From contig CAWFJJ010000030.1 of NCBI GenBank assembly GCA_963816185.1, positions 320,001 through 384,000 of the forward strand: DNA of 64,000 nt. Reading direction: 5' to 3'. Shown piece by piece: positions 3,645 through 50,612 of this stretch. The notes under the pieces are model-generated. The model worked only from the letters and a program-made list of their open reading frames with translations, searched no databases and was not told the DNA's origin. The stretch is from Thermoanaerobaculia bacterium (GTDB taxonomy: Bacteria > Acidobacteriota > Thermoanaerobaculia > UBA5066). Made by a program: the position numbers and the translations under genes. Numbering within the stretch: position 1 is the first letter of the stretch; each line of letters begins with the position of its first letter.

Positions 3645-3733
3645 CGCTGCCTCCGCTCGGTCGAGATTAGCCGATGGCCGCGTCGGTCATAATGCAAGGC
3701 TCCGGCGCTCTCTCGCGCCCGGAAAGGAGCCGC

Positions 3734-5229: not shown

Positions 5230-5242
5230 CGGGCGCCTCGCC

Positions 5243-15761: not shown

Positions 15762-15857
15762 ACGTTAGGCTCGGACACTTTGAGATAAAGCCGAGCCGAG
15801 GCTCGGACTGTCCGGTACGTACGCTTCGGCGTCCCATTTGCCCATCGGCTGCATCTC

Positions 15858-15873
15858 GGGAACAGATCTTGCT
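15858..15873 (+). promoter_or_regulatory. Candidate sigma54 (-24/-12) promoter
   Basis: GGGAACAGATCTTGCT fits TGGCAC-N5-TTGCW with exact GG-N10-GC spacing; AAGGAG RBS follows at 15901. Confidence 0.5.
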
Positions 15874-15915
15874 TTTCGGGAGCAGATTCCGGATTTTTGA
15901 AAGGAGTACAGGGGA

Positions 15916-23217: not shown

Positions 23218-23280
23218 TACGGAGTCTCTGAAGCAAGCAGACTAATGGGGAGCGGGCATCCGGGCGTTATGATCCTCGCC

Positions 23281-23946
23281 GTGAAGACCCTCGGTTTCGC
23301 CGGCAAGTGGTTCCTGGGACTCGGGATGGCTGTGATTTGCTGGGCCGCCTTCCTCTGGGCCCGTCCCGCCCAGAACTTCGTCGGCGAGTCCTCGAGGATC
23401 GTCTTCTTCCACGTGCCGATGGCGTGGGTATCCACGCTCGCTTTCTTCCTCGCCGCCTGGCATTCGGCCGTCTATCTGAAGAACCGCCGGATCGAGAACG
23501 ACGACGCCGCGGCCGGCGCGGCGCGGCTCGGTTTCGTGTTCTGCGTTCTGGCCACGGTCACCGGCTCGATCTTCGCCCGCGTGATGTGGAACTCGTACTG
23601 GAACTGGGACCCCCGCGAGACGTCCATCGTGCTCCTGCTCCTCGTGTACGGCGCGTATCTCGGCCTGAGAGGCGCGCTCGAGGACCCCGAACGTCGCGCG
23701 ACGCTCTCGGCGGCGTACGCGCTCGTGGCGGTCGTGACCGTTCCTTTCCTGACTTTCGCCGTCCCCCGCATGTACCAGTCGCTGCATCCCGACACCGTCC
23801 TCAACGCGCGAGGAAAGGTCGAAATGTCCGCGGACATCCAAACCGTTTTCTTCTCCTCCATGGTGGCTTTCATGATCTTGTTCTTCTGGATGTGGAATCT
23901 CGACCGGCGGGTGTCCCGTATCGTCCGCGAGAGGGCGACGGCGTGA
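23281..23946 (+). CDS. ccmC: Heme exporter / cytochrome c biogenesis protein CcmC
   Basis: FFHVP, WNSYWNWDPRE (WWD motif), SLHP; start taken as GTG 23281, 7 nt after TATGAT (ATG 23245 is the alternative). Confidence 0.92.
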   Translation: MKTLGFAGKWFLGLGMAVICWAAFLWARPAQNFVGESSRIVFFHVPMAWVSTLAFFLAAWHSAVYLKNRRIENDDAAAGAARLGFVFCVLATVTGSIFARVMWNSYWNWDPRETSIVLLLLVYGAYLGLRGALEDPERRATLSAAYALVAVVTVPFLTFAVPRMYQSLHPDTVLNARGKVEMSADIQTVFFSSMVAFMILFFWMWNLDRRVSRIVRERATA

Positions 23947-24466: not shown

Positions 24467-24475
24467 GGACACCCC

Positions 24476-39243: not shown

Positions 39244-40415
39244 GAGCCGACATCAGGACCAAGACACGCGTCGGGGTCATCCTCTTCGCCGCCTTCGTGC
39301 TGCTCGCGGGAGCCATCCTCTTCATCGGAGGCACGAAGGGGTTCTTCGTGAGCCGCACGTCCTACTTCGCCCGCTTCCCGAACACGCAGGGCATCGTGGC
39401 CGGAAACCAGGTGCGCCTCGCGGGTGTGATCGTGGGTGCCGTGCGCGGCATCGAGGTGCCCCGCGTGCCCGGCCAGGACGTCACGATTCACTTCGACATC
39501 GAACGCAAGTACCAGCATCTCGTCAAGACCGACAGCCGCGCCGAGATCAAGACGATCGGGCTCCTCGGCGACAAGTACCTCGACGTGACGCCGGGCTCCG
39601 CCGACAAGCCCGACCTCCAGCCCGACCACGAGATCATCGCGTTCCGCGGGGCCGAGCTCGAGAAGATCCTCGCCGGCTCGGGAGACCTCGTCGACAACGT
39701 GGTCGCGATCTCGAAGTCGCTCAAGAACATCCTGGGCCGCACCGAGAAGGGCGAGGGCTTCCTCGGGGAGATCACCTCGGAGTCGGAGAACGGCGAGGCT
39801 CTCTCGCGCTCTCTTCGCCAGACTCTCGACAGCCTGAACGGCCTGATGGCGGACGTGCGTCACGGCAAGGGCCTCGTCGGGCGACTCCTGAACGACGAGA
39901 AGACGGCCGACACCGTCCTCGGCGAGCTCGGCTCGGCGTCGGCTTCGCTCCACCGGATCCTCGCGAGCGTCGAGAAGGGAACGGAAACGGGCGAGGGCCT
40001 CGTGCCCGCGCTCCTTTCCGACCCCGAGGGGAAGAGGAAGTTCTTCGCCATGGTCGATTCGCTCCAGGTCACCGCAGAAGGTCTCGCGTCCTTCTCGAAA
40101 GACCTCAAGGCGGGGAACGGCCTCCTCGGCCAGCTCGTCTCCGACGGCGAGTTCTCGAAGGAGTTTCTCGCCGACCTCAAGAACCTCTCGTCCCACCTCG
40201 CGAACGTGGCCGCGAAGCTCGACTCCACGCAGGGGACGGCCGGAAAGCTCATCGCGGATCCGGCCGTCGCGAACGCGATCGACGACATCCTCGTGGGGAT
40301 CAACCGGAGCAAGCTGCTGCGCTGGCTCGTCCGCGACCGGCAGAAATCCGGCATTCGGAAGCGGTACGACGAAGCGCAGAAGCACCTCGCGGCTACGCCC
40401 CAGCCAACCCCGTGA
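39240..40415 (+). CDS. mlaD: MlaD/MCE domain protein with long helical extension
   Basis: N-terminal TM, VRLAGVIVG, TIGLLGDKYL, repeated GxGLxGxL helical segments. Confidence 0.9.
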   Translation: MRADIRTKTRVGVILFAAFVLLAGAILFIGGTKGFFVSRTSYFARFPNTQGIVAGNQVRLAGVIVGAVRGIEVPRVPGQDVTIHFDIERKYQHLVKTDSRAEIKTIGLLGDKYLDVTPGSADKPDLQPDHEIIAFRGAELEKILAGSGDLVDNVVAISKSLKNILGRTEKGEGFLGEITSESENGEALSRSLRQTLDSLNGLMADVRHGKGLVGRLLNDEKTADTVLGELGSASASLHRILASVEKGTETGEGLVPALLSDPEGKRKFFAMVDSLQVTAEGLASFSKDLKAGNGLLGQLVSDGEFSKEFLADLKNLSSHLANVAAKLDSTQGTAGKLIADPAVANAIDDILVGINRSKLLRWLVRDRQKSGIRKRYDEAQKHLAATPQPTP

Positions 40416-41437
40416 GCTTGGTTCTCGTCGCCGGAGGAGCCGGACTCCTCGGATCCGCCCTCGTCCGGAGGCTTCTCGGCACCGGCGAGGGGGTCGTCCT
40501 GCTGGACACGTTCGACGATGCCGGAGAGGGCCGCATGAAAAAGGAAGCGCGCATCGCCGGGTTCTCGCGTCACCCGCGCGCAGCCGTCGTGCGGGGCGAC
40601 GCGACCGATCCCGCGTTCCTCACGAGCGTGCTGGCCGAGCACCGGCCCTCGTCGATCGTGAACGCGACGCTCCTTCCGCCGGACGGCCCCGGGTTGGGCC
40701 CGCTCCTCGAGAGCGCCCGCGGCGCAGGGATCGGAATCTTCGTCCATCTTTCGGACGGCAGGCTCTACGGGCCGCGCGACGAGGCGGGGCGGCGCGCAAG
40801 AGAGGACGAAGCGACAGAGCCCGGCGACGACCTCGATCTCGGCGCGAAAGCGGCCGAAGAGGAAGCCCTTCTCGCTTCCGGCATGCCCTTCGTCAACCTC
40901 CGGGTGTTCTCCGCCGTCGGACCGGGCGGCGGGCCGGTGAGGTTCCCCCAAGACGCGCTGGAGGCGCTCTTCGGCGGCGAAAAGGTCGTCCTTCCGGACG
41001 ACGCGCCACGGGATTTCGTGCACACCGAGGACGTCGTCCGAGGAATCCTGTTCGCGATCGCGCGGAGGCCGCTCGGCGAGACCGTGAATCTCGGGTCGGG
41101 ACTCGCCGTCCGTCCCTCTGAAATCGTCCAGGCGCTCGCGCTGCGCGCGGCCCGCGAGGCGCGCATCTCGATCTCCGGAGAATCGCCGCGTCCGCCGCGC
41201 ATCGCGGATCTCGAGAAAGCCTGGCAGACGCTCGGCTACGCCCCGCAGCTCGGGATCGGCGACATCGCCTGGGAGATCGTGCGCGCGCGCCAGTACCCCG
41301 AAGAGGCCGGCCGCGGCGTGCGCCCCGCAGAGACGTCCCGGGCGCCCGCGGAGGCCCTGAGACCCGTCTCACGCCGCGAGCTCTTCGGGTTCTTCCGCAG
41401 GCCGTTCGACGCCGCCACGAAAAGGCGCGACCGCTAG
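40412..41437 (+). CDS. NAD-dependent epimerase/dehydratase-like protein with degenerate active site
   Basis: GGAGLLG, NLRVFSAVGP, RDFVHTEDV, NLGSG; YxxxK replaced by DLGAK. Confidence 0.8.
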   Translation: MSLVLVAGGAGLLGSALVRRLLGTGEGVVLLDTFDDAGEGRMKKEARIAGFSRHPRAAVVRGDATDPAFLTSVLAEHRPSSIVNATLLPPDGPGLGPLLESARGAGIGIFVHLSDGRLYGPRDEAGRRAREDEATEPGDDLDLGAKAAEEEALLASGMPFVNLRVFSAVGPGGGPVRFPQDALEALFGGEKVVLPDDAPRDFVHTEDVVRGILFAIARRPLGETVNLGSGLAVRPSEIVQALALRAAREARISISGESPRPPRIADLEKAWQTLGYAPQLGIGDIAWEIVRARQYPEEAGRGVRPAETSRAPAEALRPVSRRELFGFFRRPFDAATKRRDR

Positions 41438-41492
41438 CTCGCCCGCGGGCTCCGCCCACGCCGGAGAAAGGCGGGCGAGCGAACGATCATTT

Positions 41493-41519
41493 CGGGGGAA
41501 CCCCGATCGGGTTCCCCCG
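41493..41519. terminator. Strong hairpin between convergent genes (terminator or REP-like)
   Basis: CGGGGGAACCC-CGATC-GGGTTCCCCCG perfect 11-bp stem; no clear U-tract. Confidence 0.4.
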
Positions 41520-41577
41520 TTCCCCCTCCTCTGACGCGAAAGACATAGATCTCCTGGACAGCCTCTTAGCTTCCCGA

Positions 41578-42486
41578 TCAGTCGCAGATCCGGAGGTTCG
41601 AGTCGGCGAACTTGCTCGCGACCTCCGGGGCGTGCGCATGTCCCGAGCAGCAGAACCGGGCGACGTCGTCCTTGTGAATGCGGCCTCCTGCCTTCGCGCA
41701 GTAGTCCGCGAAGACGACGATCCCGGTCGCGTTCGGCTTGCTGAAATCGACGTTGCGCCTCCACGAATAGTCCGCAAGCCGGTTCAGGGCCCGGTTCCAC
41801 TCCGCGACGCAGTTCCCGTCGTTCCCCGTGATGGCGTCGAGCGGGCCGGCCTGGCAGGCCATCCCGTGCGGATGGCTCGAGCAACACTGGTCGTGGAGCC
41901 AGCTTCCGCTGTTGATCGAGCAGCTCCCGAAGCTGCAAAGCGCAGCGATGGGAATGCCGAACTGCGCGCCTCCGCAGCCCGCGCCGAGTGCGCCGAAGCA
42001 GAACTCTGTCTTTCGCTTGAAGACAACCGGGACCGTCGGGAGAGTCTGAGGCACGGGCGTCTTCTCGAGGACGAACGGCGTCGGCACGATCACGGTTCCC
42101 CTGCCGCCAGGCACCGCCGGCCCCTGAGGGAGCGGCTGGACCGTGATGGAGCCCGAGCAGGTCGGACCGCCGGCGGCGAGCCGGAGCGTCAGCGCCGCGT
42201 GGGAGCCGCTCGGGACGACCGATGCCTCGGCGCCCCGCCCGAGATGGCTCGCAGTCACGAGGATCGCGCTCGACGGCACCTGGGCGAACGCCGCCTCGCC
42301 GGCCGCATTCGTGAGCGCGGTCCCGATCGCCGCGCGGTTCGAGAGCGATCCGAGGCAGACCCGGGCGCCGGAGACGGGGGCGTTCCCGTCCAGGACCGTC
42401 ACCGCGAGCGCCCCCGCGGCGGCGCGGGCTCCCAGAAGGATGGCCAGACTGGAAGCGGCACCAACCGACACTCGCCTACGCGTCAT
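41578..42486 (-). CDS. Secreted protein: Ig/carboxypeptidase-regulatory-like domain, Pro-rich linker, Cys-rich C-terminal domain
   Basis: Signal peptide, PVSGARV...TNAAGEAAF, C-terminal domain with many Cys including WLHDQCC. Confidence 0.75.
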   Translation of the reverse strand: MTRRRVSVGAASSLAILLGARAAAGALAVTVLDGNAPVSGARVCLGSLSNRAAIGTALTNAAGEAAFAQVPSSAILVTASHLGRGAEASVVPSGSHAALTLRLAAGGPTCSGSITVQPLPQGPAVPGGRGTVIVPTPFVLEKTPVPQTLPTVPVVFKRKTEFCFGALGAGCGGAQFGIPIAALCSFGSCSINSGSWLHDQCCSSHPHGMACQAGPLDAITGNDGNCVAEWNRALNRLADYSWRRNVDFSKPNATGIVVFADYCAKAGGRIHKDDVARFCCSGHAHAPEVASKFADSNLRICD

Positions 42487-42605
42487 GTCTCATCTCCCCA
42501 AGGTAAGCGCATTCCGGCTCCCTCGTGGCTCGCGCCGCGGCGCGCGAGGGTCCGTCGCTGATCCGATCCCTTCTCTCCACCGGCCGCGTGCGCACGCGCT
42601 GACGA

Positions 42606-43229
42606 TCAGCGCCGGAGCGTGAACGTGCTGGCGGGCAGCGCTTCGCCGCCGCCGAGCACGATCCACGTGTACGTCGTCCCAGGGCGGAGCTTCGCACGCT
42701 CCGCTTCGGGAAATGCGACGGGCTTCCCCGGGTCAGACGGGACGCTCGTCCAGACGTAGCGCCTTTCTGCGTCGAAGACGCTCACGCGCACGCTCGCGGC
42801 GCCGCTCCGCGGGAACCGGAATTCGGCCGGCGGGGCCGCGATTTCACCCGAAGGGGAGAAGGCGCCGGGCGACGCAACGCCGCCGCGCAGCACGTCGGCC
42901 CCCCGGCGCGGGAGGAACATGACGAGCGCGACGGCCAGGCACACGGCGGCCGCCGTCGCAAGGGCAGTCATGGAGCCGAACACCGGGCGCCTCGGCACGG
43001 GCGCTCCGGCGAATTTCGTCCACGCAGCCCGGGCCCGGCGCGCTTCGTCTCCGAAAAGACCCGGCGGCCGCGCGTCGAACTGCTCGAGCGCGGCCAGCTC
43101 CGCGCTGCAGTCGGCGCACGTCGCCGCGTGGGCGAGCACCTCGGCCGACGCCTCGCTTTTCGGAGAGGCGTGGGCGCGGTAGAGGGACTCGGCGTCGGGA
43201 TGCGGCCCGCGCGGTTTCGGTGGGATCAA
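42606..43229 (-). CDS. Membrane-spanning zinc-finger anti-sigma factor
   Basis: HPD...HAATCADC (HxxxCxxC), one TM, periplasmic beta domain; TTG start overlaps the sigma stop. Confidence 0.8.
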   Translation of the reverse strand: MIPPKPRGPHPDAESLYRAHASPKSEASAEVLAHAATCADCSAELAALEQFDARPPGLFGDEARRARAAWTKFAGAPVPRRPVFGSMTALATAAAVCLAVALVMFLPRRGADVLRGGVASPGAFSPSGEIAAPPAEFRFPRSGAASVRVSVFDAERRYVWTSVPSDPGKPVAFPEAERAKLRPGTTYTWIVLGGGEALPASTFTLRR

Positions 43230-43735
43230 GAGAGCACCTCGCGCAGCCGCCGCCTCGCGTTCCAGACCTGCACCTTCACGGTGCCGGACGACAGCGAGAG
43301 GCGCTCGGCGATCTCGTCGTACGGCAGCTCCTCCTGCACGCGCAAGAGGAAGCAGGCACGCATCCGGGCCGGCAGGGCCGCGAGGCCGTCGCGGACGCGG
43401 TCGAGCTTCTCTTTCTCGACGACTTCGCGCTCGGGAGACGGGGCCGCGCCCTCGAGGTCGCGGTTCTCGAGAGCCTCGGCCCGCGAATCGTCGTTCCGAC
43501 GCCACGCGTCGCGGGCCACGTTCCGGGCGACGCTGTAGACCCAGGGAGCGAAAAGTGTAATGTCTCGCACCTTCCCTCTCCCCCGGTAGACGTTCAGGAG
43601 CGCCGTCTGGCATAGATCGTCGGCGTCTTCGACAGCGAAGCCGAGGGAGCGGAAGTATCGGAAGAGCCTCGGGTGGTACTCGAGAAAGACCTCGCGGAAG
43701 TCGCCGAGCGTCGCGGCCGGACTCTCGGTGCTCAT
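43226..43735 (-). CDS. ECF sigma-70 family RNA polymerase sigma factor
   Basis: DADDLCQ, FAPWVYSVARN, LPARMRACFLLR, YDEIAERLSLSSGTVK. Confidence 0.92.
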   Translation of the reverse strand: MSTESPAATLGDFREVFLEYHPRLFRYFRSLGFAVEDADDLCQTALLNVYRGRGKVRDITLFAPWVYSVARNVARDAWRRNDDSRAEALENRDLEGAAPSPEREVVEKEKLDRVRDGLAALPARMRACFLLRVQEELPYDEIAERLSLSSGTVKVQVWNARRRLREVLS

Positions 43736-46700
43736 CGTCCGTCTCCGAACAGCTCGAAAGCGGCCCAGTGCCAGGGGCGCGCGAACTCCGCGCCCGCCTC
43801 GCCCGAGATGAGGGCGCGCTGGGCGCTCCGGAGAGCGTCGTCCTTGCGCTGCCCGCGCGCGAGGCCGCGGTAGAAGCGGGTCATCAGCTCCTTCGTCGAA
43901 CGGTCCGACACGGACCATAGTGAAGCCGCTACCGTCCGTGCACCGGCGATCTGGAAAGCGCGCGTAAGACCCACGAGCCCTTCCCCGCCGCCGCCCGAGC
44001 CGAGCCCGGTTTCGCAGCCTGACAGCGTGACGAGGTCCGCGTCGAGGCGCATCGAATCCACGATGTCCCACGCGGAAAGCAGTCCCGCCGTGCCCGCGCT
44101 CGGTTCGCCCGTGTCATCGGGCGCAAGGGCGAGGGCCGACTCCATCGGGAAACGGAAATCCACGAGGGCGTGCGTCGCGAAGTGGACGTATCGAACGAAG
44201 CGGCCGAGCCGGTGCGCGCGCTCGCGCGTGGCCGTCTTTCCCGTGAAGACGACCTTCGGCCCCATCCAGAGGCCGGCGATCGCCTTTGCCTCTTCTCGGG
44301 CGCCCGGGAGCGGTGCGAGGCCCTTTCGATAGCGCGCGAGCGGCGCGCTCTCGGCTCCGCGGACCACGTCGCCGAACGCCGTCCCGGCAGAGGCCTGATC
44401 GGCCGCCTCGGGAAGCGCCGGATCCGCAAAGACGACGAGCCGGGCGGGCCCCCTCGTGCCGGCCGCGTGCCGCATCTCGGCGAACGCCGTGGCCGAAGGC
44501 GCGACGACGTAAGGCAAGCGCTCGGCGAGCCACGAGCCGTCACCCCCGGGGGCGACGATCGCGCCGAAAGGCAGAGTCAGGAGCGGCCCGTCGGGGGCGA
44601 GGAGAAGCCGTTCGGCGCGCGCGAGCGAAGCCGCGGCCGGCCCCAGGAGCAGCGCGCCGAGCTGCCCGGCCTGTACGCGGGCTCGGGCCGCCTCGGGCTC
44701 GCCGGAGACGAGGAGACTGCGGTAGATCTCGACTTCGCGCCGAAGAGAGTCGGCCCCCTCCGCGATCGTCCGGACTTCCAGGCTCTTCTTGTCTTCGCCG
44801 GAGCCGGGAGACACGACGAACAGCAGAGTTCGCGAAGGCTCGACCGCCCAGGCGAGAAAGAGCGTCCCTGGGTCGAGGACCGCGCGGATGCCCGCGAGGT
44901 CGAGCGGCTGCGGATGGAGCGCGCGCGCGAGGAGAGGATCCGACGCCGCGAGCAGCGAGACGAGCCCGGCGCGGTCGGTCCGAAGATCGCGGAGCTTCGC
45001 TTCCGCCGCCTCGAGCTTCGCCGCGTCCTTCTCGGGATCGAGAGAGGCGAGAGACTTCTCCGCCTCCGCCTCGGCGGCAGCCAATTCTCCACGCCGCTTC
45101 GCGAGCGCCTCGGGAAGGCGGCCGGCGATCGAGTCCCGCGTCTTGAGCATCGACAGCAGGCGTCGCGCGCGCGAACGCTCGAGGACGTGGAGCGCATCGG
45201 CCTCGCGCCCGCGGGCCAGGAGGAAGTCGATGTAGTCCCGGTAGACGTCGGCGGTCCACGTTGCGAACGCGGCGGCGCCGTCGTACGCGACGCCGAGCCG
45301 GTCGGCCTGCTCCTCGAGGGCGGAAAGGCCGCTCTCGAATGATCGCTCGGCTCCCGCGTCGTCCCCGCTCTCGGCGAGGACCTTCGCGAGGACGTCCCAC
45401 GCGGAGGCCTCGGCCGAGGATCCCGGCACGATCCTCCGGTGAAACTCGGCGGATTCCCTCGCGAGCGGCAGGGCCTCGGCCGCCTTCCCCTGTGCGAGCA
45501 GCGCCTCCGCCAGCGACCGGCGTGCTCCGGCCGTCGGGAGGGCGCGCGGGGCGAGCCGCGCGCCGATTGTGAGCGCTGACTTCAGATGCTCTTCTGCCGC
45601 GGGCCACTCCCCGACGCTCGACTCGATCTCGGCCACTCGCACGAGATTGGAGGCCTCGAGGAGGGAGCCCGGAGCCAGCTTTCTCGCCCCGTCGAGGGCG
45701 CGCCGACCCAGCGCCCTCGCCTCGTCGGGCCGCCCTCCGAGAAGCGTCACGCGCGCGAGGTCCGACAGGGACGCCACGACGTCGCGACCCTCCGGCGCGA
45801 GCGTCTCGCGGATCGCGAGGGCCTTGCGGTGGCGCTCCTCGACCAGCGCGAAGTCGCCGCGCTCGAGCGCCACGTTTCCGAGGTTCGCCGTGATGCCGGC
45901 GACGTTCATCGAGCCCGGTGCCGCCCGTTCGAAGCGGACTGCGGCCTGTCCATAGGCCTCTTCGGCCCCGCCGAGGTCGCCTCGCTGCTTGAGGATGACG
46001 CCGAGGCTGTTCCATATCGCTGCCGCCAAGGCGCCCTCTGGATCGCGCTCGAGGACGATCGCGAGTGCGCGGCGCTGGTCGGCCTCCGCGGCGGCGAAGT
46101 CACCCCTCATCCTCGCGATCGTGCCGAGGCCGTTGTAGCAGGACTCGGCGATGTCGCCTTTCGGCGCGAGTCGCGAGGCGATCGCGAGGGCCCTCGTGAG
46201 ACGGTGGCGGGCCTCGTCGAGGTCGTCGCGACGCGTCGCAAGCCCGCCAATGCTCAGGAGGATGCGGGCGTGCTCGAGGGACCCTGGCGCACTCTTCTCG
46301 ATCATCGCGAGCGCGTTCCGGACGAGCTCTTCGCCTTCCTTCTCCTGCCCCTTGAAGTTGCCGAGGAAGAGGCCGAGCGCGGCGAGCGCCAGCGCCTGCG
46401 GCGGCCCGCCAGCGTCCGTCCGCGCGCGGATCGCGAGGGCCTCGCGGAGCGCCTCCTCGGCGCCCTTGCCGTCCTGGAGGAAGATGAGCGTGCGGGCCTC
46501 GGAGCGCAAGACGAGGGCGCGGAGCCGGTCGTCCTTGGTCCGGAGGCTCGCCTCGCGAGCGGCCTCCCATTCGATCTTCGCGTCGGCGTAGCGGGCCTTG
46601 GCCGAAAGTTCGGCGGCGCGCTCGAGCGTCTGCCAGAGCGCCATATCTCCCTCAACGTCTGGCCGCGTCCTCAACCGCCACTCGCCGCCGCCGAGCCGCA

Positions 46701-46983
46701 CGACGGCCCTCTTCCCGGAGCGCGTATAGGCGACCGTGATCGGACCCCGCGGAACCTGCGCGAGCTCGAGGTCGTCGACTTCCCATGGGGCGAGGAACGC
46801 GCCGGATGCCGCGGTCGACGACTTCGTCGCAGCGCGTCGCCACGAGACGAGACGATCGCCGGGTTTCAGGTGTGCCTTCGCGGCCTCGCCGCCGGGCCTC
46901 GCCTCGACCACCACGACGTCCGCCCTGCCGGCCGAGCCGAAGGCCAGAACGGCGGCGGCAGCGAGGAGGCGTGGACGGGTCAT
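43732..46983 (-). CDS. Exported PDZ-like + TPR + CHAT (caspase-like) protease
   Basis: Signal peptide, AKAHLKPGDRLV PDZ-like segment, TPR array, CHAT motifs PDGPL, HFATHA, LSGCETG, SLWSVSD, WAAF. Confidence 0.92.
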   Translation of the reverse strand: MTRPRLLAAAAVLAFGSAGRADVVVVEARPGGEAAKAHLKPGDRLVSWRRAATKSSTAASGAFLAPWEVDDLELAQVPRGPITVAYTRSGKRAVVRLGGGEWRLRTRPDVEGDMALWQTLERAAELSAKARYADAKIEWEAAREASLRTKDDRLRALVLRSEARTLIFLQDGKGAEEALREALAIRARTDAGGPPQALALAALGLFLGNFKGQEKEGEELVRNALAMIEKSAPGSLEHARILLSIGGLATRRDDLDEARHRLTRALAIASRLAPKGDIAESCYNGLGTIARMRGDFAAAEADQRRALAIVLERDPEGALAAAIWNSLGVILKQRGDLGGAEEAYGQAAVRFERAAPGSMNVAGITANLGNVALERGDFALVEERHRKALAIRETLAPEGRDVVASLSDLARVTLLGGRPDEARALGRRALDGARKLAPGSLLEASNLVRVAEIESSVGEWPAAEEHLKSALTIGARLAPRALPTAGARRSLAEALLAQGKAAEALPLARESAEFHRRIVPGSSAEASAWDVLAKVLAESGDDAGAERSFESGLSALEEQADRLGVAYDGAAAFATWTADVYRDYIDFLLARGREADALHVLERSRARRLLSMLKTRDSIAGRLPEALAKRRGELAAAEAEAEKSLASLDPEKDAAKLEAAEAKLRDLRTDRAGLVSLLAASDPLLARALHPQPLDLAGIRAVLDPGTLFLAWAVEPSRTLLFVVSPGSGEDKKSLEVRTIAEGADSLRREVEIYRSLLVSGEPEAARARVQAGQLGALLLGPAAASLARAERLLLAPDGPLLTLPFGAIVAPGGDGSWLAERLPYVVAPSATAFAEMRHAAGTRGPARLVVFADPALPEAADQASAGTAFGDVVRGAESAPLARYRKGLAPLPGAREEAKAIAGLWMGPKVVFTGKTATRERAHRLGRFVRYVHFATHALVDFRFPMESALALAPDDTGEPSAGTAGLLSAWDIVDSMRLDADLVTLSGCETGLGSGGGGEGLVGLTRAFQIAGARTVAASLWSVSDRSTKELMTRFYRGLARGQRKDDALRSAQRALISGEAGAEFARPWHWAAFELFGDGR

Positions 46984-47040
46984 CGATAGATCCTGCCCGG
47001 GGATCTTAGTGCGGCCCGAAAACGCGACGGGCCGGCCCCG

Positions 47041-47092
47041 AAAAAGACGAAAAGTCTCTATGCCGCTGGCTCGCGCCTGTCGTCTTTCCCGT
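47041..47092 (+). promoter_or_regulatory. Conserved bipartite upstream motif copy 1 (ECF-promoter-like)
   Basis: AAAAAGACGAAAAGTCTCTATGCCGC-N14-CGTCTTTCCCGT, repeated at 48789. Confidence 0.65.
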
Positions 47093-47135
47093 ACGAATTC
47101 GGTGCAGACAAGAGGCGCCGCGAGGAGGAGAAGGT

Positions 47136-48746
47136 ATGCGAACAGAAGCACGGAGACTGGTAATCGCCTTCGGCGCGGGCGCCATCCTCGGCGGGTGTCT
47201 CCTAAGCGGGTTTGCCCGCGCGCAGGAGCAGCCCCTCCCCCCTCGAGTGGGTCACGAGGAGACCCTAAATGCCCGGGCGACGCTCGCGGGTCGGCCCGTG
47301 TCGCGTTCGCCCGAGCCTCTCAGTCTCATGTCTCCTCAGGACCGGCGACAAGCCGTAGACGCGTACTGGGGAGAAGGGCTATCGACGGCGGACAAGCTCG
47401 TGTTATTCGACAAGTTCTGGCGGTACGCAGACGGGAAGTTCGCCGCGTTCCAGGGAATCGACGTGGACTGGGCCGCTCTTCGAGACCGTTATCGGGCGGA
47501 AATCGCGGCGGGCGTCAGCCGGGGCCGGTTCGCCGGAATCATGAATCACCTGTCCCTCGCGCTCCGTGACAGCCACACGGTGGCGCTCGACGTTCCCGTC
47601 AACCTCTTCACCGTGTCCCAGCCTGGGGTGCCGCTGCTCGCGCTCAGCGCCTGGACCTATGACACCTCCGGCACTTGCGAGACCGCGCTGGCGGACGGGT
47701 CGGCCCTGGTGTACTCGGCGGTCCCCGGACATCCTCTCGGACTCGAGCCGGGCGACCGGATCCTCGGCTACGACGGAAGGCCGTGGCGGGAGCTGTATCA
47801 GGAGCTGTTGAGCGAAGAGCTGCCGCTGTGGCCCCTGTGGTGGGGGTCGTCCCCCAGCTCCTTCGACCATTCGTTCGTGATGGCCGCCGCCATGAACTGG
47901 CACCTTTTCGACACCATGGACATCGCGAAGCACGGCAGCGGCCAGGTCGTTCACGTGCCGACGAGCCTCATGCCGGGCGTGATCTGGCACGGGTTCTGTT
48001 CGGAACAGATGAACATCCCGGGTGTCCCGAAGCCCGCGGACTTTTTCAACCTCGATTTCGTCAGCTCGGGCATCGTCGCAGGTACACACATCGGCTACAT
48101 CTACGTCTGGGGCTGGGTTGGAAACGCGGAGCAGGATTTCGCGCAGGCGGTGAATAACCTCACACAAGTCGAGCACGTCGACGGGCTCATCCTCGACTTC
48201 CGATTCAACGAAGGCGGATATATCAACGCGCCATTCCACGGTCTCGCCGAGCTGTTCGCACATCCGGCGCCGACGATGGGCTACGACGACCGAAAGTACC
48301 CGGCCGACCACCTCAAGATGAAACGCCTTTCGCCGCCGAGCGCGTTCAACATGGACTTCACCCCTGACGGCAGCCGCGTCAAGGCGTCCTACGGCGGCCC
48401 GATCGCTGTGCTGGTTGGCCCTGGTGCCGTCAGTGCCGGAGACTTGAGCTCGTTTTGGGCGACGTTCCTTCCGCGCGTCCGCACATTCGGGAAGCCCACA
48501 TCGGCGGCATTCACGATTCCGACCCAACCCGCACTCGGGACGAGCCTCGATCTGAACCCGGACTGGGATACGAAGGTCGGCGAAGCAAACGCATTCGCCG
48601 TCGGCGCGCCGCACGACTATCTGACCCACCGCGAATTCCCGGTCGATGAACTCGTCTGGCTGAAGCCCGACGACGTCGCTGTGGGGAAGGATACGGTCGT
48701 GGAGGCGGCGCTGAGCTGGATTCGTCAGCAAGTCGGGGGCAAGTAG
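47136..48746 (+). CDS. Exported S41 family peptidase (tricorn-C1/PDZ-like plus catalytic domain)
   Basis: Signal peptide, VDWAALRDRY, LRDSHT, IGYIYV, LILDFRFNEGG, AVSAGD. Confidence 0.85.
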   Translation: MRTEARRLVIAFGAGAILGGCLLSGFARAQEQPLPPRVGHEETLNARATLAGRPVSRSPEPLSLMSPQDRRQAVDAYWGEGLSTADKLVLFDKFWRYADGKFAAFQGIDVDWAALRDRYRAEIAAGVSRGRFAGIMNHLSLALRDSHTVALDVPVNLFTVSQPGVPLLALSAWTYDTSGTCETALADGSALVYSAVPGHPLGLEPGDRILGYDGRPWRELYQELLSEELPLWPLWWGSSPSSFDHSFVMAAAMNWHLFDTMDIAKHGSGQVVHVPTSLMPGVIWHGFCSEQMNIPGVPKPADFFNLDFVSSGIVAGTHIGYIYVWGWVGNAEQDFAQAVNNLTQVEHVDGLILDFRFNEGGYINAPFHGLAELFAHPAPTMGYDDRKYPADHLKMKRLSPPSAFNMDFTPDGSRVKASYGGPIAVLVGPGAVSAGDLSSFWATFLPRVRTFGKPTSAAFTIPTQPALGTSLDLNPDWDTKVGEANAFAVGAPHDYLTHREFPVDELVWLKPDDVAVGKDTVVEAALSWIRQQVGGK

Positions 48747-48788: not shown

Positions 48789-48840
48789 AAAAAGACGAAA
48801 AGCCTCTATGCCGCCCGCCCGTCTCGCCCGTCTTTCCCGT
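48789..48840 (+). promoter_or_regulatory. Conserved bipartite upstream motif copy 2 (ECF-promoter-like)
   Basis: AAAAAGACGAAAAGCCTCTATGCCGC-N14-CGTCTTTCCCGT; 25/26 and 12/12 identical to copy 1, spacer unrelated. Confidence 0.65.
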
Positions 48841-48854
48841 TGAAGGGGGCTTCC

Positions 48855-50612
48855 ATGTCTCTGTCTAACCGCTCCAACGCGTCCTGGGTCCGTGCGATCT
48901 GCTTGGGGTTCGCCGTGCTCTCGCTGGTCGCAGGCGCCGCGCAGGCCCAGGTCGTCTCCGAGTTCAGCGCCGGAATCACCGCCCCTGCGGCCCCTACCGG
49001 CATCACCGCCGGGCCCGACGGCAACCTGTGGTTCACGGAATTCAACGGCAACCGGATCGGACGGATTACCACGGCCGGAGTCGTCACCGAGTTCAGCGCC
49101 GGCATCACCGTCGGTGCGGCCCCTGACGGCATCAGCGCCGGGCCCGATGGCAACCTGTGGTTCACGGAATTCAACGTCGACCGGATCGGGCGGATCACCA
49201 CGGCCGGAGTCGTCACCGAGTTCAGCGCCGGCATCACCATCCCTGCGGGCCCTCGCAGCATCACGGCCGGCCCTGATGGCAACCTGTGGTTCACGGAAGC
49301 TGACGACCGGATCGGGCGGATTACCACGGCCGGAGTCGTCACCGAGTTCAGCGCCGGCATCACCGCCCTTGCCCACCCTTACGGCATCACCGCCGGGCCC
49401 GATGGCAACCTCTGGTTCACGGAATTCGACGGCAACCGGATCGGGCGGATTACCACGGCCGGAGTCGTCACCGAGTTCAGCGCCGGCATCACCGCCCTTG
49501 CGGACCCTCGCGGCATCACCGCCGGGCCCGACGGCAACCTGTGGTTCGCGGAATTCAACATCAACGCCAACCGGATCGGGCGGATTACCACGGCCGGAGT
49601 CGTCACCGAGTTCAGCGCCGGCATCACCGCCCCTGCGGGCCCTGTCGAAATCATCGCCGGCCCCGATGGCAACCTTTGGTTCACGGAAGCTGCCGACCGG
49701 ATTGGGCGGATTACGACGGGTGTCACCGTCGCCCCGCCGACGATCGTGAAGTCGTTCGGTGCGGCGAGCATTCCTCTGAACGGCTCGACCTCGCTCAGCT
49801 TCACGATCAACAACCCGAATGCCTCCACGGCGTTGACCGGCATCGGCTTCACCGACACGCTGCCGGCCGGCCTCGTGATCTCGACCCCGAACGGGCTCAC
49901 GGGTAGCTGCGGTGGGGGCACGATCACGGCAACGGCCGGATCGGGTGCCGTCAGCTTGACGGGAGCGACGCTCGCAGCGAGCGCTCAGTGCAACTTCAGC
50001 GCGAACGTGACCGGCACCACGCCGGGAACGAAGAACAACGTCACCAGCGCGGTGACCTCGGTCGAAGGCGGGGCGGGCGGTACGGCCTCGGCGAGTGTGA
50101 CCGTTGCCGCGGCAACAGCCCCGCCGGCAATCGTGAAGTCGTTCGGTGCGGCCAGCATCCCTCTGAACGGATCGACTTCTCTCAGCTTCACGATCGACAA
50201 CCCCAACACTTCCACATCGTTGACGGGCGTCGGGTTCACCGATACGTTGCCGGCTGGCCTCGTGGTCTCGACTCCCAGCGGGCTCACGGGTACCTGCGGC
50301 GGAGGCACGATTACGGCGACGGCCGGCTCGAATGCCGTCAGCCTGACAGGAGCGACGCTCGCAGGGAGCGCCTCGTGCACCTTCAGCGCGAACGTGACCG
50401 GTGACGCGCTGGGAACGCAGACTAATGTCACCGGCGCGGTGACCTCGGTCGAGGGCGGCACGGGCGGCACGGCCAGGGCGGGTGTTACGGTGGTTGCGGG
50501 CGGGCCCGCGGCGCCGACGAACGTTCCCGCGTTGAAGCCATGGGCGCTGGCGCTGCTCGGGCTGCTCCTGGCCGTCGTCGCCGGCATTGCCTTGCGCCAC
50601 AAGATCGGTTAG
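48855..50612 (+). CDS. Surface protein: six Vgb/NHL-like propeller repeats, two Ig-like repeats, IPTL-CTERM-like sorting signal
   Basis: Six ITAGPDGNLWFTE-type repeats, two IVKSFGAASIPLNGSTSLSFTI domains, C-terminal VPALKPWALALLGLLL...R. Confidence 0.88.
   Translation: MSLSNRSNASWVRAICLGFAVLSLVAGAAQAQVVSEFSAGITAPAAPTGITAGPDGNLWFTEFNGNRIGRITTAGVVTEFSAGITVGAAPDGISAGPDGNLWFTEFNVDRIGRITTAGVVTEFSAGITIPAGPRSITAGPDGNLWFTEADDRIGRITTAGVVTEFSAGITALAHPYGITAGPDGNLWFTEFDGNRIGRITTAGVVTEFSAGITALADPRGITAGPDGNLWFAEFNINANRIGRITTAGVVTEFSAGITAPAGPVEIIAGPDGNLWFTEAADRIGRITTGVTVAPPTIVKSFGAASIPLNGSTSLSFTINNPNASTALTGIGFTDTLPAGLVISTPNGLTGSCGGGTITATAGSGAVSLTGATLAASAQCNFSANVTGTTPGTKNNVTSAVTSVEGGAGGTASASVTVAAATAPPAIVKSFGAASIPLNGSTSLSFTIDNPNTSTSLTGVGFTDTLPAGLVVSTPSGLTGTCGGGTITATAGSNAVSLTGATLAGSASCTFSANVTGDALGTQTNVTGAVTSVEGGTGGTARAGVTVVAGGPAAPTNVPALKPWALALLGLLLAVVAGIALRHKIG
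48952..49725 (+). repeat. Six tandem ~123-129 bp propeller-blade repeats
   Basis: GAGTTCAGCGCCGG and GGCAACCT.TGGTTC recur six times nearly unchanged. Confidence 0.9.

What the first reader, a model, noticed from the sequence alone, without database searches (positions are those of the whole stretch)
42606..46983. Exported caspase-like TPR-CHAT protease + ECF sigma + zinc anti-sigma: CRISPR-independent proteolytic signalling module
Seen: three genes joined by 4-nt overlaps. The CHAT protein has a signal peptide, a PDZ-like segment, TPRs and an intact His/Cys dyad (HFATHA, LSGCETG). The anti-sigma has HxxxCxxC, a TM helix, then an exposed DVLRGG linker and a small beta domain. Established: in type III-E CRISPR the TPR-CHAT protease Csx29 cleaves Csx30, which binds an ECF-like sigma; classical ECF activation uses DegS/PrsW-type site-1 proteases. 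Inference: a ligand-gated periplasmic caspase-like enzyme serves as the dedicated site-1 protease, possibly cutting at LR|GG. This would be a receptor-protease-sigma relay with no cas genes in the window.
Basis: partly seen in the sequence, partly recalled or inferred. Interest (0 to 1): 0.78.

Follow-up and report, generated by a model that had tools for sequence, protein, structure and literature searches.

The report
Split periplasmic caspase-like protease, sigma, anti-sigma module
Three overlapping genes encode an exported caspase-like (TPR-CHAT) protease, an ECF sigma factor and its membrane anti-sigma factor, whose outer part carries a conserved arginine linker and small Ig-like domain that travels with this protease family, so it looks like a two-protein version of the one-protein DdvA anti-sigma system.

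Summary
On the minus strand, CHAT (43732-46983), an ECF sigma (43226-43735) and a zinc-motif anti-sigma (42606-43229) are joined by ATGA and TTGA overlaps. The His/Cys dyad, signal-peptide-like N-terminus, PDZ-like domain, TPRs, HxxxCxxC, TM helix and beta ectodomain are all present. Only R-G of "LRG" is invariant.

The closest known system is not type III-E Csx29/Csx30 but Myxococcus DdvA-DdvS, where the periplasmic TPR-CHAT is fused to the anti-sigma. Here it is a separate exported protein, in Acidobacteriota (Thermoanaerobaculia).

Sigma/anti-sigma pairs lie beside CHAT genes in 19 of 73 related loci. They belong to three anti-sigma families and track CHAT clades.

The anti-sigma ectodomain (disordered linker with an invariant Arg, then an Ig-like domain) recurs beside CHAT paralogs. 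It occurs as a secreted FecR-like protein, and in 7 of 20 cases it is fused in frame to PDZ-TPR-CHAT.

This supports CHAT acting on the ectodomain, most likely as the site-1 protease. Cleavage is untested, and the complex prediction gave only weak support. I class it as a new variant of a known kind, of moderate to high interest.

The parts
43732..46983 (-). Gene for the exported PDZ-like/TPR/CHAT protein (1083 aa)
   Evidence: ORF and start codon. Pfam CHAT E 2.2e-65 and TPR_12 E 1.9e-45. AF2 model pLDDT 86.8, pTM 0.84. Foldseek hits to separase, DdvA and Csx29.
46921..46983 (-). Signal-peptide-like N-terminus (residues 1-21, MTRPRLLAAAAVLAFGSAGRA)
   Evidence: Hydropathy maximum 2.74 at residue 6, preceded by two Arg. 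37 of 42 relatives are alike. Helix 3-16 in the model. No SignalP run.
46660..46917 (-). PDZ-like beta domain (residues 23-108)
   Evidence: Strands 23-108 in the AF2 model. Conserved GVVVE..PGD..SW block. PDZ_6 hits in relatives. No Pfam PDZ hit for this copy.
44914..46653 (-). TPR superhelix (residues ~111-690)
   Evidence: Pfam TPR_12 and TPR_10. Helical repeats in the model.
43735..44886 (-). CHAT caspase-like domain (residues ~700-1083)
   Evidence: Pfam CHAT at 772-1081. Mixed alpha/beta fold in the model.
44170..44172 (-). Codon of the putative catalytic His938 (in HFATHA)
   Evidence: Translation. Invariant in A2. 86 of 87 rows.
44014..44016 (-). Codon of the putative catalytic Cys990 (in LSGCETG)
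   Evidence: Translation. Invariant in A2. 87 of 87 rows.
43226..43735 (-). ECF sigma factor gene (169 aa); ATGA overlap with the CHAT stop
   Evidence: Sequence. Pfam r2 and r4_2. TIGR02937 94.3 bits against cutoff 42.9. PDB sequence relatives are SigE, SigH, SigW and RpoE.
42606..43229 (-). Single-pass anti-sigma gene (207 aa, TTG start; TTGA overlap with the sigma stop)
   Evidence: Sequence. Family of 31 proteins. Model.
43107..43130 (-). HxxxCxxC motif (H34, C38, C41) in the cytoplasmic three-helix domain
   Evidence: Invariant in 38 of 38 sequences. Helices 13-21, 26-53 and 61-73. H10 is nearly invariant and is a possible fourth ligand (inference).
42915..42971 (-). Transmembrane helix (residues 87-105)
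   Evidence: Hydropathy 2.43 at residue 88; 38 of 38 relatives have one such segment. Helix 87-105 in the model.
42879..42896 (-). DVLRGG linker motif (residues 112-117); R115 is the proposed P1 residue
   Evidence: R115 and G116 are invariant. The Arg is invariant across 32 modules from anti-sigmas and CHAT-adjacent proteins. It lies in a segment with pLDDT below 50.
42609..42866 (-). Ig/FN3-like ectodomain (residues ~122-207) with the LRPGxxYxWxV signature
   Evidence: Beta strands with pLDDT 83-96. Weak FN3/Ig Foldseek hits, E about 1e-3. hhalign to the CHAT-adjacent module: probability 83%, E 8.7e-6.

Best explanation
This is an envelope signalling module of an Acidobacteriota (Thermoanaerobaculia-like) chromosome, and I read it as a two-protein version of DdvA-DdvS.

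What the sequence and models show:
- An exported PDZ-like/TPR/CHAT protein with an intact His/Cys dyad.
- An ECF sigma.
- A single-pass anti-sigma with a cytoplasmic HxxxCxxC three-helix domain, one TM helix, a disordered periplasmic linker with an invariant Arg-Gly, and an Ig-like domain.
- All three are translationally coupled.

What the comparison shows:
- The 'Arg-linker plus Ig-like domain' is a module that accompanies this CHAT family. It appears as the ectodomain of three different ZAS anti-sigma families, as a secreted FecR-like protein encoded just upstream of CHAT, and as an N-terminal in-frame fusion to PDZ-TPR-CHAT.

What I infer:
- The CHAT protein docks on the Ig-like domain.
- When a signal is sensed through its TPR or PDZ parts, it cuts the linker at or next to the invariant Arg. 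This is site-1 cleavage.
- The shortened anti-sigma becomes a substrate for an RseP-type site-2 protease encoded elsewhere.
- The sigma is then released and probably raises transcription of its own operon, including CHAT.

The signal and the regulon are unknown.
For: Fold: Foldseek places the CHAT model with human separase (E 1.5e-15), DdvA (8rw5 E 5.7e-15; 8rot_A E 3.2e-14, TMq 0.41/TMt 0.48) and Csx29 (8eey_B E 1.8e-14).

Precedent: for DdvA the authors propose that the periplasmic TPR-CHAT clips its own linker as a site-1 protease before RseP acts. They showed that DdvA lacking its TPR-CHAT is degraded in an RseP-dependent way (PMC11506125, passages read).

Linkage:
- 14 of 73 CHAT loci hold a close relative of this sigma (E<1e-20). 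13 of them also hold this anti-sigma family.
- In 9 of these 14 loci the last CHAT gene is followed by the sigma on the same strand, within 0-547 nt.
- Five more loci carry a second sigma/zf-HC2 pair next to CHAT, and L035 a third.
- On the CHAT tree, a clade of 21 rows (SH-aLRT 92) holds 19 rows from sigma loci.
- The label 'this anti-sigma family' on 20 rows needs 3 changes, against a shuffled mean of 18.2 (0 of 500 shuffles as low). The second family forms one clade with support 100.

Module:
- R115 and G116 are invariant in 38 anti-sigmas.
- The Arg is invariant in a joint alignment of 12 anti-sigma ectodomains and 20 CHAT-adjacent modules.
- hhalign of the two families gives probability 83%, E 8.7e-6 over 72 columns.
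- An iterated HMM finds the module in 40 of 73 loci.
- 7 of 20 FecR-like copies are fused in frame to PDZ-TPR-CHAT.
- In an independent library, 8 of 39 full-profile hits carry PDZ, TPR or CHAT after the module, and 2 of them are full-length with CHAT.
- The Arg lies in a segment predicted disordered (pLDDT below 50), which fits a linear motif.
- All 7 extra anti-sigmas also have Arg followed by G, S or A before their beta domain.

Dyad: His kept in 86 of 87 rows and Cys in 87 of 87.

Complex prediction, CHAT 192-1083 with anti-sigma 106-207, gave weak support:
- Score 0.40 (runs 0.40, 0.08, 0.52); best control 0.00.
- The mark was reached by 116 of 157 solved complexes and 2 of 215 mismatched pairs. 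At 0.60 or under it was reached by only 18 of those 157 and by both mismatches that passed.
- The runs agree in at least 57% of contacts, and the partner's pLDDT is at least 73.
- My own alignments were used, so these counts hold only roughly.
Against: - No cleavage, binding or activity data exist for this system or, by the authors' own account, for DdvA's CHAT.
- Linkage is not obligate. In L009, L019 and L028, opposite-strand genes (Sortilin/BNR-like, M23) lie between CHAT and sigma. In L021 the pair is about 5 kb away. The two L066 CHATs inside the clade have no pair within the 1.8 kb available downstream.
- 33 of 73 loci show no module. About a third of those have almost no upstream flank.
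- The loci were fetched through CHAT, so the reverse frequency (CHAT given this anti-sigma) rests only on these loci and on four contig-length coincidences.
- The Ig-like profile also hits thousands of generic multi-repeat Ig proteins (6876 at E<=1e-3). The hhalign match may therefore partly reflect a common fold, and the shared Arg is the more specific feature.
- An acidic residue at P4 (DxxR) holds for this anti-sigma family only, not for the FecR-like copies, which read AVRIR.
- One of the three complex runs scored 0.08.
- A ZAS-type anti-sigma could be inactivated from the cytoplasm by thiol oxidation, without proteolysis.
- CHAT is the first gene of the operon, which is also what an output gene would look like.
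- No ECF-type promoter motif was found.
Confidence: 0.45

Rival explanations
1. Tether or pseudosubstrate model. The Arg-linker/Ig module binds the CHAT protein without being the productive substrate, much as securin binds separase. The anti-sigma would then hold CHAT at the membrane and keep it inactive, or CHAT would shield the anti-sigma as RseB shields RseA. A signal would release CHAT to cut other periplasmic targets, and a different site-1 protease would remove the anti-sigma.
For: - The evidence for co-occurrence and fusion is equally well explained by binding as by cleavage.
- The weak complex support (score 0.40, best control 0.00, with the caveats given above) speaks only to proximity.
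- In separase, the inhibitor securin occupies the active site (stated in PMC11506125).
- An S41 peptidase gene sits divergently next to the operon (47136-48746; Pfam Peptidase_S41 E 1.6e-14).
Against: - The S41 gene is not conserved in the 73 loci.
- The invariant Arg followed by a small residue, in a disordered linker, is what a scissile site looks like.
- The dyad is kept in essentially all paralogs, so catalysis is under selection, although this does not identify the substrate.
Confidence: 0.2
2. Output model. CHAT is simply a member of the sigma's regulon, co-transcribed with its regulator. It acts on unrelated envelope proteins, for example in stress or turnover, and the anti-sigma senses its signal by other means.
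For: - CHAT is the first gene of a translationally coupled operon.
- ECF sigmas commonly autoregulate their operons (established knowledge, not tested here).
- Most CHAT paralogs have no sigma nearby: 54 of 73 loci.
Against: - It does not explain why the anti-sigma ectodomain resembles the module encoded beside, or fused to, sigma-less CHAT paralogs.
- It does not explain why three different anti-sigma families next to CHAT all carry an Arg-linker plus a beta domain.
- Gene order differs between families: sigma, anti-sigma, CHAT in L044 and L052, against CHAT, sigma, anti-sigma here. This argues for a partnership rather than one fixed transcription unit.
Confidence: 0.15
3. Redox-only model. 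The anti-sigma is a classical zinc (ZAS) switch that releases the sigma on cytoplasmic thiol oxidation, and the periplasmic parts and CHAT are irrelevant to sigma control.
For: - HxxxCxxC is invariant, together with a nearly invariant H10.
- The three-helix N-terminal domain appears in the model.
- The DdvA authors also consider targeting of the zinc site by reactive oxygen species (passage).
Against: - Many membrane ZAS anti-sigmas are not redox sensors (established knowledge, recalled).
- A conserved TM helix, linker motif and ectodomain, all under strong conservation, would be unnecessary for a purely cytoplasmic switch.
Confidence: 0.1

Closest known systems
DdvA-DdvS of Myxococcus xanthus, a transmembrane ZAS anti-sigma fused to a periplasmic TPR-CHAT (PMC11506125; PMC6061681)
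   Same: - An ECF sigma, a single-pass zinc-motif anti-sigma and a periplasmic TPR-CHAT with a His/Cys dyad.
- Foldseek matches the window's CHAT model to DdvA (8rw5 E 5.7e-15; 8rot_A TMq 0.41/TMt 0.48).
- The same proposed logic: CHAT clips a flexible juxtamembrane linker, and RseP then acts.
   Different: - Here the TPR-CHAT is a separate exported protein with its own signal peptide and a PDZ-like domain.
- The anti-sigma ectodomain is a small Ig-like domain.
- There is no sequence-level similarity: phmmer of the CHAT domain and of the anti-sigma against PDB sequences found nothing relevant.
- The phylum differs. The authors' Table S7 lists Myxococcota and one Comamonas, and has 0 mentions of Acidobacteria.
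- No CBASS or CRISPR genes are nearby.
- DdvA lacks a three-helix motif in its active site; whether this protein has that motif was not tested.
Type III-E craspase: Cas7-11 with Csx29 (TPR-CHAT), Csx30 and an ECF-like sigma
   Same: - A TPR-CHAT protease whose cleavage of a partner is thought to free an ECF-type sigma.
- A fold match to Csx29 (8eey_B E 1.8e-14).
   Different: - That system is cytoplasmic and gated by RNA through Cas7-11.
- Here the protease is exported, no cas genes are present, the anti-sigma is a membrane ZAS protein unrelated to Csx30 (no PDB sequence hit), and the activating signal is unknown.
Separase with securin and cohesin (eukaryotes)
   Same: - The best fold matches (9hn0_B E 1.5e-15).
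- Separase cuts after Arg in an unstructured ExxR motif (stated in PMC11506125).
- This anti-sigma family has [D/E]xxR-G in 10 of 12 locus copies, and D112 is nearly invariant.
   Different: - A different cellular setting and different substrates.
- The acidic P4 residue is not shared by the FecR-like copies of the module.
- The resemblance is a lead, not a demonstration of specificity.
Classical regulated intramembrane proteolysis of anti-sigma factors (DegS/RseP on RseA; Prc/RseP on FecR-like proteins)
   Same: - A periplasmic protease with a PDZ-type domain acting as a signal-gated site-1 enzyme.
- A single-pass anti-sigma and an ECF sigma of the SigE/RpoE/SigW sequence neighbourhood.
   Different: - The candidate site-1 enzyme is a clan CD cysteine protease with a long TPR array, not a serine protease.
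- It is encoded in the same operon as its presumed substrate.
- The site-2 protease is not in the window.

Membership tests
ECF (group 4) sigma-70 factors | Only the sigma2 and sigma4 domains are present, and the protein matches ECF family models above the curated cutoff | tested here: met
   Pfam Sigma70_r2 E 2e-12 and r4_2 E 4.6e-14. TIGR02937 scores 94.3 bits against a cutoff of 42.9.
ZAS (zinc-binding) anti-sigma factors | An HxxxCxxC motif in an N-terminal helical anti-sigma domain | tested here: met
   H34, C38 and C41 are invariant in 38 of 38 sequences. The model has three N-terminal helices.
ZAS (zinc-binding) anti-sigma factors | A match to the Pfam zf-HC2 model (PF13490) | tested here: not met
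   No hit at E<=0.01 or at E<=10 for any of 28 family members. The other two CHAT-linked anti-sigma families do match.
ZAS (zinc-binding) anti-sigma factors | Binds zinc and its cognate sigma | not testable with these tools
CHAT / clan CD caspase-like peptidases | A CHAT domain above the Pfam cutoff with the His and Cys dyad in place | tested here: met
   CHAT scores 221.4 bits against a cutoff of 24. H938 and C990 are present, in 86 of 87 and 87 of 87 rows.
CHAT / clan CD caspase-like peptidases | Proteolytic activity | not testable with these tools
   Needs enzyme assays.
DdvA-type TPR-CHAT anti-sigma factors | ZAS domain, TM helix and TPR-CHAT in one polypeptide | tested here: not met
   Here these are two genes: a 207-aa anti-sigma and a 1083-aa exported CHAT protein.
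DdvA-type TPR-CHAT anti-sigma factors | A periplasmic TPR-CHAT of the separase/craspase architecture | tested here: met
   Foldseek hits to DdvA, separase and Csx29. Signal-peptide-like N-terminus.
DdvA-type TPR-CHAT anti-sigma factors | Dimeric arrangement with an incomplete active site lacking a three-helix motif | not tested
   No residue-level structural superposition was available, and no homodimer job was run.
DdvA-type TPR-CHAT anti-sigma factors | Controls a CBASS/CRISPR-Cas island. This holds for DdvA itself but only for a subset of its relatives, according to the paper. | tested here: not met
   No cas, CBASS or PADLOC families were found in the window ORFs scanned.
Type III-E craspase (Csx29-Csx30) | Association with Cas7-11 and a Csx30 substrate; cytoplasmic location | tested here: not met
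   No cas genes. The anti-sigma has no PDB sequence relative. The protease has an export signal.
Regulated intramembrane proteolysis cascades | A site-2 (RseP-type) protease acting after site-1 cleavage | not testable with these tools
   No RseP-like Pfam family appeared among the scanned ORFs of the window. The rest of the genome was not available.

The most novel reading that the evidence does not exclude
Acidobacterial PDZ-TPR-CHAT proteins may form a large family of periplasmic caspase-like signalling proteases that recognise one dedicated cleavable 'handle': a disordered linker with an invariant Arg followed by a small Ig-like domain. Evolution has attached this handle to different outputs: at least three unrelated ZAS anti-sigma families, secreted FecR-like proteins encoded with TPR Ser/Thr kinases, and the protease itself as a self-fusion, which would imply autoprocessing. 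On this reading the window's trio is one instance of a modular, protease-gated, transmembrane signalling principle. It would parallel separase-cohesin and craspase-Csx30, but in the periplasm and independent of CRISPR.
Probability: 0.3. Interest if true: 0.8.

Novelty: new variant of a known kind. Interest (0 to 1): 0.62.

Why it matters
DdvA-DdvS is so far the only studied link between a periplasmic TPR-CHAT and an ECF sigma. Its proposed self-cleavage could not be tested because the signal is unknown and protease and substrate are one chain.

A natural split version separates enzyme and substrate into two proteins and points to a candidate scissile site, the invariant Arg-Gly in a disordered linker. 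The site-1 hypothesis then becomes directly testable in vitro and in a reporter strain.

The recurrence of the same Arg-linker/Ig module beside or fused to hundreds of CHAT paralogs suggests a general substrate-recognition rule for a large, uncharacterised protease family in Acidobacteriota. It also suggests a link from these proteases to both ECF sigma and Ser/Thr-kinase signalling.

In the searches I ran, only the two DdvA papers linked CHAT with ECF or anti-sigma, and they describe the fused form.

Tried and rejected
- **Family look-ups for the anti-sigma.** Pfam and NCBIfam gave no family. PDB sequence search gave only a chance-level hit (1kb0, E 3.8).
- **ESM Atlas.** The ectodomain gave only unnamed clusters scoring below 0.9, which are leads and not evidence.
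- **PDB sequence searches for CHAT.** The whole protein and its profile were swamped by TPR proteins. The CHAT domain alone found nothing at E<=10, so the relation to DdvA, separase and Csx29 rests on fold only.
- **Promoters.** I read 15 upstream regions by eye and ran a consensus scan of 41400-47400 (0 promoter-like sites, 2 terminator-like sites against 2.2 expected). No shared ECF-type motif emerged. L009, L019 and L028 have a TTGACA-N17-TGAGAT-like site before sigma, by my reading. Autoregulation therefore stays an assumption.
- **Long plus-strand ORFs between CHAT and sigma in L009, L019 and L028.** I rejected these as antisense artefacts. The minus-strand frames are better conserved (71.7% against 66.8% identity; bit scores about 1610 against 959-1043) and carry Sortilin/BNR/M23 domains.
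- **Recurrent 'neighbour families' B, D, E, F, G and J.** These were alternative frames of kinase genes and were dropped.
- **Flanking genes as conserved partners.** Neither the downstream 302-aa Cys-rich protein (41578-42486) nor the S41 peptidase is conserved in the 73 loci. The ORF 39863-41368(-) appears to be an alternative frame: its only matches, in L001, overlap an epimerase gene on the opposite strand there.
- **Separase-like ExxR specificity as a general rule.** Rejected, because the acidic P4 residue is confined to this anti-sigma family.
- **Not checked.** No second genome-contig scan was allowed. Signal peptide and lipobox predictors were unavailable.


Full report
**Observation.**
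- CHAT runs 43732-46983 (1083 aa, ATG at 46983).
- Sigma runs 43226-43735 (169 aa).
- Anti-sigma runs 42606-43229 (207 aa, TTG start).
- The junctions are ATGA and TTGA, each a 4-nt overlap.

Pfam gives CHAT (E 2.2e-65, residues 772-1081) and TPR_12 (E 1.9e-45, 8 stretches) for the first protein, and Sigma70_r2/r4_2 for the second. NCBIfam's ECF model scores 94.3 bits against a cutoff of 42.9. HFATHA and LSGC are read as claimed.

The anti-sigma has no Pfam or NCBIfam family. It does have an invariant H34-x3-C38-x2-C41, one TM segment and a beta ectodomain.

Among 44 window ORFs scanned with Pfam and 9 with PADLOC there is no cas, CBASS or other defence family. The only PADLOC hit was a generic TPR model on the CHAT protein (E 6.7e-6). 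The neighbourhood is ordinary chromosome: transporters, dehydrogenases, cytochrome c maturation, a 1953-aa multihaem cytochrome, and kinases.

**Structure and topology.**
The AF2 model of the CHAT protein is confident (pLDDT 86.8, pTM 0.84). It shows:
- an N-terminal helix (3-16) that reads as a signal peptide (MTRPRLLAAAAVLAFGSAGRA|DV);
- a beta domain (23-108);
- a long TPR superhelix (about 111-690);
- the CHAT domain.

37 of 42 relatives have a comparable hydrophobic N-terminus, and several have lipobox-like cysteines (hydropathy scan only). The PDZ nature of the beta domain is backed by PDZ_6 hits in relatives (E 1.8e-7), but not for this copy.

Foldseek against the PDB puts the model with human separase (E 1.5e-15), the DdvA anti-sigma (8rw5 E 5.7e-15; 8rot_A E 3.2e-14, TMq 0.41/TMt 0.48) and Csx29 of the craspase (E 1.8e-14). 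At sequence level the CHAT domain finds no PDB chain at E<=10.

The anti-sigma model (pLDDT 80) has three N-terminal helices, a TM helix at 87-105, a low-confidence stretch at 106-121 that holds DVLRGG (112-117), and a well-predicted beta domain at 125-205. That beta domain has only weak FN3/Ig-type matches (E about 1e-3).

**Closest known system.**
Full-text searches returned only the two DdvA papers as linking CHAT with ECF or anti-sigma.

In PMC11506125 I read the abstract and passages and searched two supplementary files. The paper describes the following.
- DdvA is a ZAS anti-sigma whose periplasmic domain is a TPR-CHAT.
- The authors propose that CHAT clips the linker to the TM helix, an S1P-like role, before RseP acts.
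- They state that CHAT activity could not be validated because the signal is unknown.
- Their search was for fused DdvA-like proteins only. It found them in Myxococcota and one Comamonas, and their tables have 0 mentions of Acidobacteria.

The window therefore encodes the same set of parts, but split into two proteins and in another phylum.

**Neighbourhood survey.**
A scan of one genome per species with the CHAT alignment found at least 561 relatives, and 73 loci were kept. Nearly all are from Thermoanaerobaculia or other Acidobacteriota MAGs. The closest is 50% identical.

*This sigma family.*
- Close relatives of the window's sigma (E<1e-20) occur in 14 of the 73 loci, and this anti-sigma family in 13.
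- In L001, L002, L004, L023 and L035 the sigma starts 0-77 nt after the CHAT stop.
- In L011, L026, L045 and L053 one to three tandem CHAT genes are followed by a cold-shock gene (CSD E 1.2e-29 in L026) and then by sigma and anti-sigma.
- In L009, L019 and L028, opposite-strand genes have come between.

*Other families.*
- Five further loci (L044, L052, L057, L062, L065) carry a second, distantly related sigma/zf-HC2 pair next to CHAT. In L044 and L052 the order is sigma, anti-sigma, CHAT.
- L035 has a third kind.
- In total, 19 of 73 loci have a sigma/anti-sigma pair.

*Tree.*
- On a maximum-likelihood tree of 87 CHAT rows (the last 520 residues of each; quick search, SH-aLRT only), the window groups with L001 (support 100) inside a clade of 21 rows (support 92). 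19 of those rows come from sigma loci.
- The label 'this anti-sigma family' needs 3 changes, against a shuffled mean of 18.2 (0 of 500 shuffles as low).
- The second family is one clade with support 100.
- Labels are per locus and relatives share labels, so this shows clustering, not independent events.

**The ectodomain is a CHAT-associated module.**
In the other large CHAT clades, the gene just upstream of CHAT encodes a secreted protein of about 290 aa. Alignment A4 holds 20 sequences. Five partial matches were left out: L022, L033, L050, L056 and L072. The protein consists of:
- a signal peptide;
- a FecR-like part (Pfam FecR in 2 of 20, best E 0.0026);
- a linker reading A-V-R-I-R-[AGST] with an invariant Arg;
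- an Ig-like domain with the signature LxPGxxYxWxV;
- a helical tail.

In 7 of the 20 (L005, L012, L014, L034, L060, L067, L070) this protein runs, with no stop codon and no second signal peptide, straight into PDZ-TPR-CHAT. A TPR Ser/Thr kinase gene lies beside it in 23 loci.

Several results tie this module to the anti-sigma ectodomain.
- Profile-profile comparison of the anti-sigma family with this family aligns anti-sigma 120-196 to the Ig-like domain: probability 83%, E 8.7e-6, 72 columns.
- In a joint alignment of 12 anti-sigma ectodomains and 20 of these modules, five columns are invariant. One of them is the linker Arg, R115 of the window's anti-sigma.
- All seven anti-sigmas of the other two families also show Arg followed by G, S or A before their beta domain: VLRGG, VFRSE, AVRAS, VLRGS, VVRGS, VYRGT and DDVLRGGG.
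- An HMM of the module, iterated on the locus ORFs, finds it in 40 of 73 loci. Of the 33 without it, about a third have almost no upstream flank.

Against 1.84 billion representative proteins, the module profile has 6876 hits at E<=1e-3. The top ones are giant multi-repeat Ig proteins that match only from about profile position 12 onward, that is without the Arg linker. The Ig-like part therefore belongs to a very large fold family. From the 150 hits listed, I picked 39 single-stretch hits that cover the whole profile. Eight of them carry PDZ, TPR or CHAT after the module, and two (P0241, P0270) are full-length with CHAT. This confirms the fusions independently of my ORF reading.

**Mechanism.**

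*Shown:*
- an exported CHAT protein with its dyad kept in 86 of 87 (His) and 87 of 87 (Cys) relatives;
- a ZAS-type single-pass anti-sigma;
- an invariant Arg-Gly in a segment predicted disordered;
- evolutionary coupling between CHAT clades and carriers of the Arg-linker/Ig module, including gene fusions.

*Inferred:*
- CHAT docks on the Ig-like domain and cuts at or next to the Arg, which is site 1;
- an RseP-type enzyme encoded elsewhere then cuts within the membrane;
- the sigma is released.

Complex prediction on CHAT 192-1083 with anti-sigma 106-207 gave weak support.
- Score 0.40 (runs 0.40, 0.08, 0.52), with a best control of 0.00.
- The mark was reached by 116 of 157 solved complexes and 2 of 215 mismatches. 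At 0.60 or below it was reached by only 18 of those 157 and by both mismatches that passed.
- Run agreement was at least 57% of contacts, and the partner's pLDDT was at least 73.
- My own alignments were used, and no interface was reported.

In this anti-sigma family, an acidic residue sits four positions before the Arg: D112 is nearly invariant, and [D/E]xxR-G occurs in 10 of 12 locus copies. This recalls separase's ExxR as quoted in PMC11506125. The FecR-like copies lack it, so only 'Arg plus a small residue' is general.

I put the full site-1 model at 0.45. The rivals are a tether or pseudosubstrate role of the module (0.2), CHAT as a mere output of the sigma (0.15), and a purely cytoplasmic zinc/redox switch (0.1).

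**What speaks against it.**
- There is no biochemical evidence anywhere for this system.
- Linkage is not obligate: L009, L019, L028, L021 and L066 are exceptions.
- The survey was anchored on CHAT. The collections that would allow a survey from the anti-sigma side were closed or capped. Only four contig-length coincidences between anti-sigma and CHAT hits hint at that direction.
- The hhalign probability is moderate, and the Ig fold is common.
- One complex run scored 0.08.
- No ECF promoter motif was found.

**Verdict.**
The finding is a split, Acidobacterial variant of the DdvA-type TPR-CHAT, anti-sigma and ECF sigma system. It comes with a candidate recognition and cleavage module that recurs across the CHAT family. 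I class it as a new variant of a known kind, with interest 0.62.

Noticed in passing
L003, L015, L018, L071 and 19 other loci (e.g. L015:897-3041 kinase, 3041-3946 FecR-like/Ig protein, 3999-7283 CHAT): The gene order TPR Ser/Thr kinase, then a secreted FecR-like/Arg-linker/Ig protein, then CHAT recurs. The kinase is a neighbour in 23 of 73 loci. This suggests that CHAT paralogs are also tied to kinase signalling.
   Followed up: partly
L005:4999-9249, L014:5209-9264, L067:5179-9096, L070:5188-9234; P0241, P0270: In these proteins the FecR-like/Arg-linker/Ig protein is fused in frame to PDZ-TPR-CHAT, with one signal peptide at the far N-terminus. They are candidates for self-processing.
   Followed up: partly
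L026:2588-12611; also L006, L011, L053, L038, L041: Two or three CHAT paralogs lie in tandem; there are three in L026 and L006. The family has at least 561 members among species-representative genomes.
   Followed up: no
L026:12730-12933 and the same position in L011, L045, L053 (degraded in L036): A cold-shock-domain gene (CSD E 1.2e-29), followed by a GC-rich hairpin with a T run, sits between the last CHAT gene and the sigma gene.
   Followed up: yes
L065:3905-5581: Sigma70_r2/r4_2 and zf-HC2 fall in one stop-free frame of 559 codons, which may be a sigma/anti-sigma fusion or overlapping genes in the same frame. L065 has sigma/anti-sigma pairs on both sides of a frameshifted CHAT gene.
   Followed up: no
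L009:9290-12895(-), L019:9882-13274(-), L028:3658-8097(-): Opposite-strand genes (Sortilin/BNR-like, peptidase M23) are inserted between CHAT and sigma/anti-sigma. The nearest relatives, L004 and L023, have the genes adjacent.
   Followed up: partly
window 29533-31212 (-): The gamma-glutamyltranspeptidase gene is split over two ORFs. Pfam profile positions 39-315 and 414-507 are matched, the middle is missing, and the tail of the first ORF reads as an Arg-rich off-frame sequence. This is a likely frameshift or assembly error.
   Followed up: partly
window 15789-21647 (+), with 13764-14477, 23218-23943, 24467-26926: A 1953-aa multihaem cytochrome (Cytochrome_C7, MtrC/MtrF-like domains) lies among CcmB/CcmC/CcmF-type maturation genes.
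   Followed up: no
window 48840-50609 (+): A secreted protein combines Virginiamycin-B-lyase-family beta-propeller repeats, DUF7933 and an IPTL-CTERM sorting motif.
   Followed up: no
window 47136-48746 (+) and 41578-42486 (-): The operon is flanked by a divergent S41 (Tricorn_C1 + Peptidase_S41) protease gene and, downstream, by a 302-aa Cys-rich secreted protein with sub-threshold CarboxypepD_reg similarity. Neither is conserved in the 73 loci.
   Followed up: partly
L042 (CAZJBN010000063.1) and L013 (JAZDDE010000130.1): The record titles name Bifidobacteriaceae and Gemmatimonadota, but the loci carry the Acidobacteria-type CHAT arrangement. In L042 this includes the kinase and the FecR-like neighbour. 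Possible binning or labelling errors.
   Followed up: no
L032:8675-9361 (-): A convergent 229-codon ORF right after a CHAT gene matches the module HMM (E 3e-12) and weakly matches the anti-sigma HMM (E 5.7e-5). It has no sigma nearby and no Pfam family.
   Followed up: no
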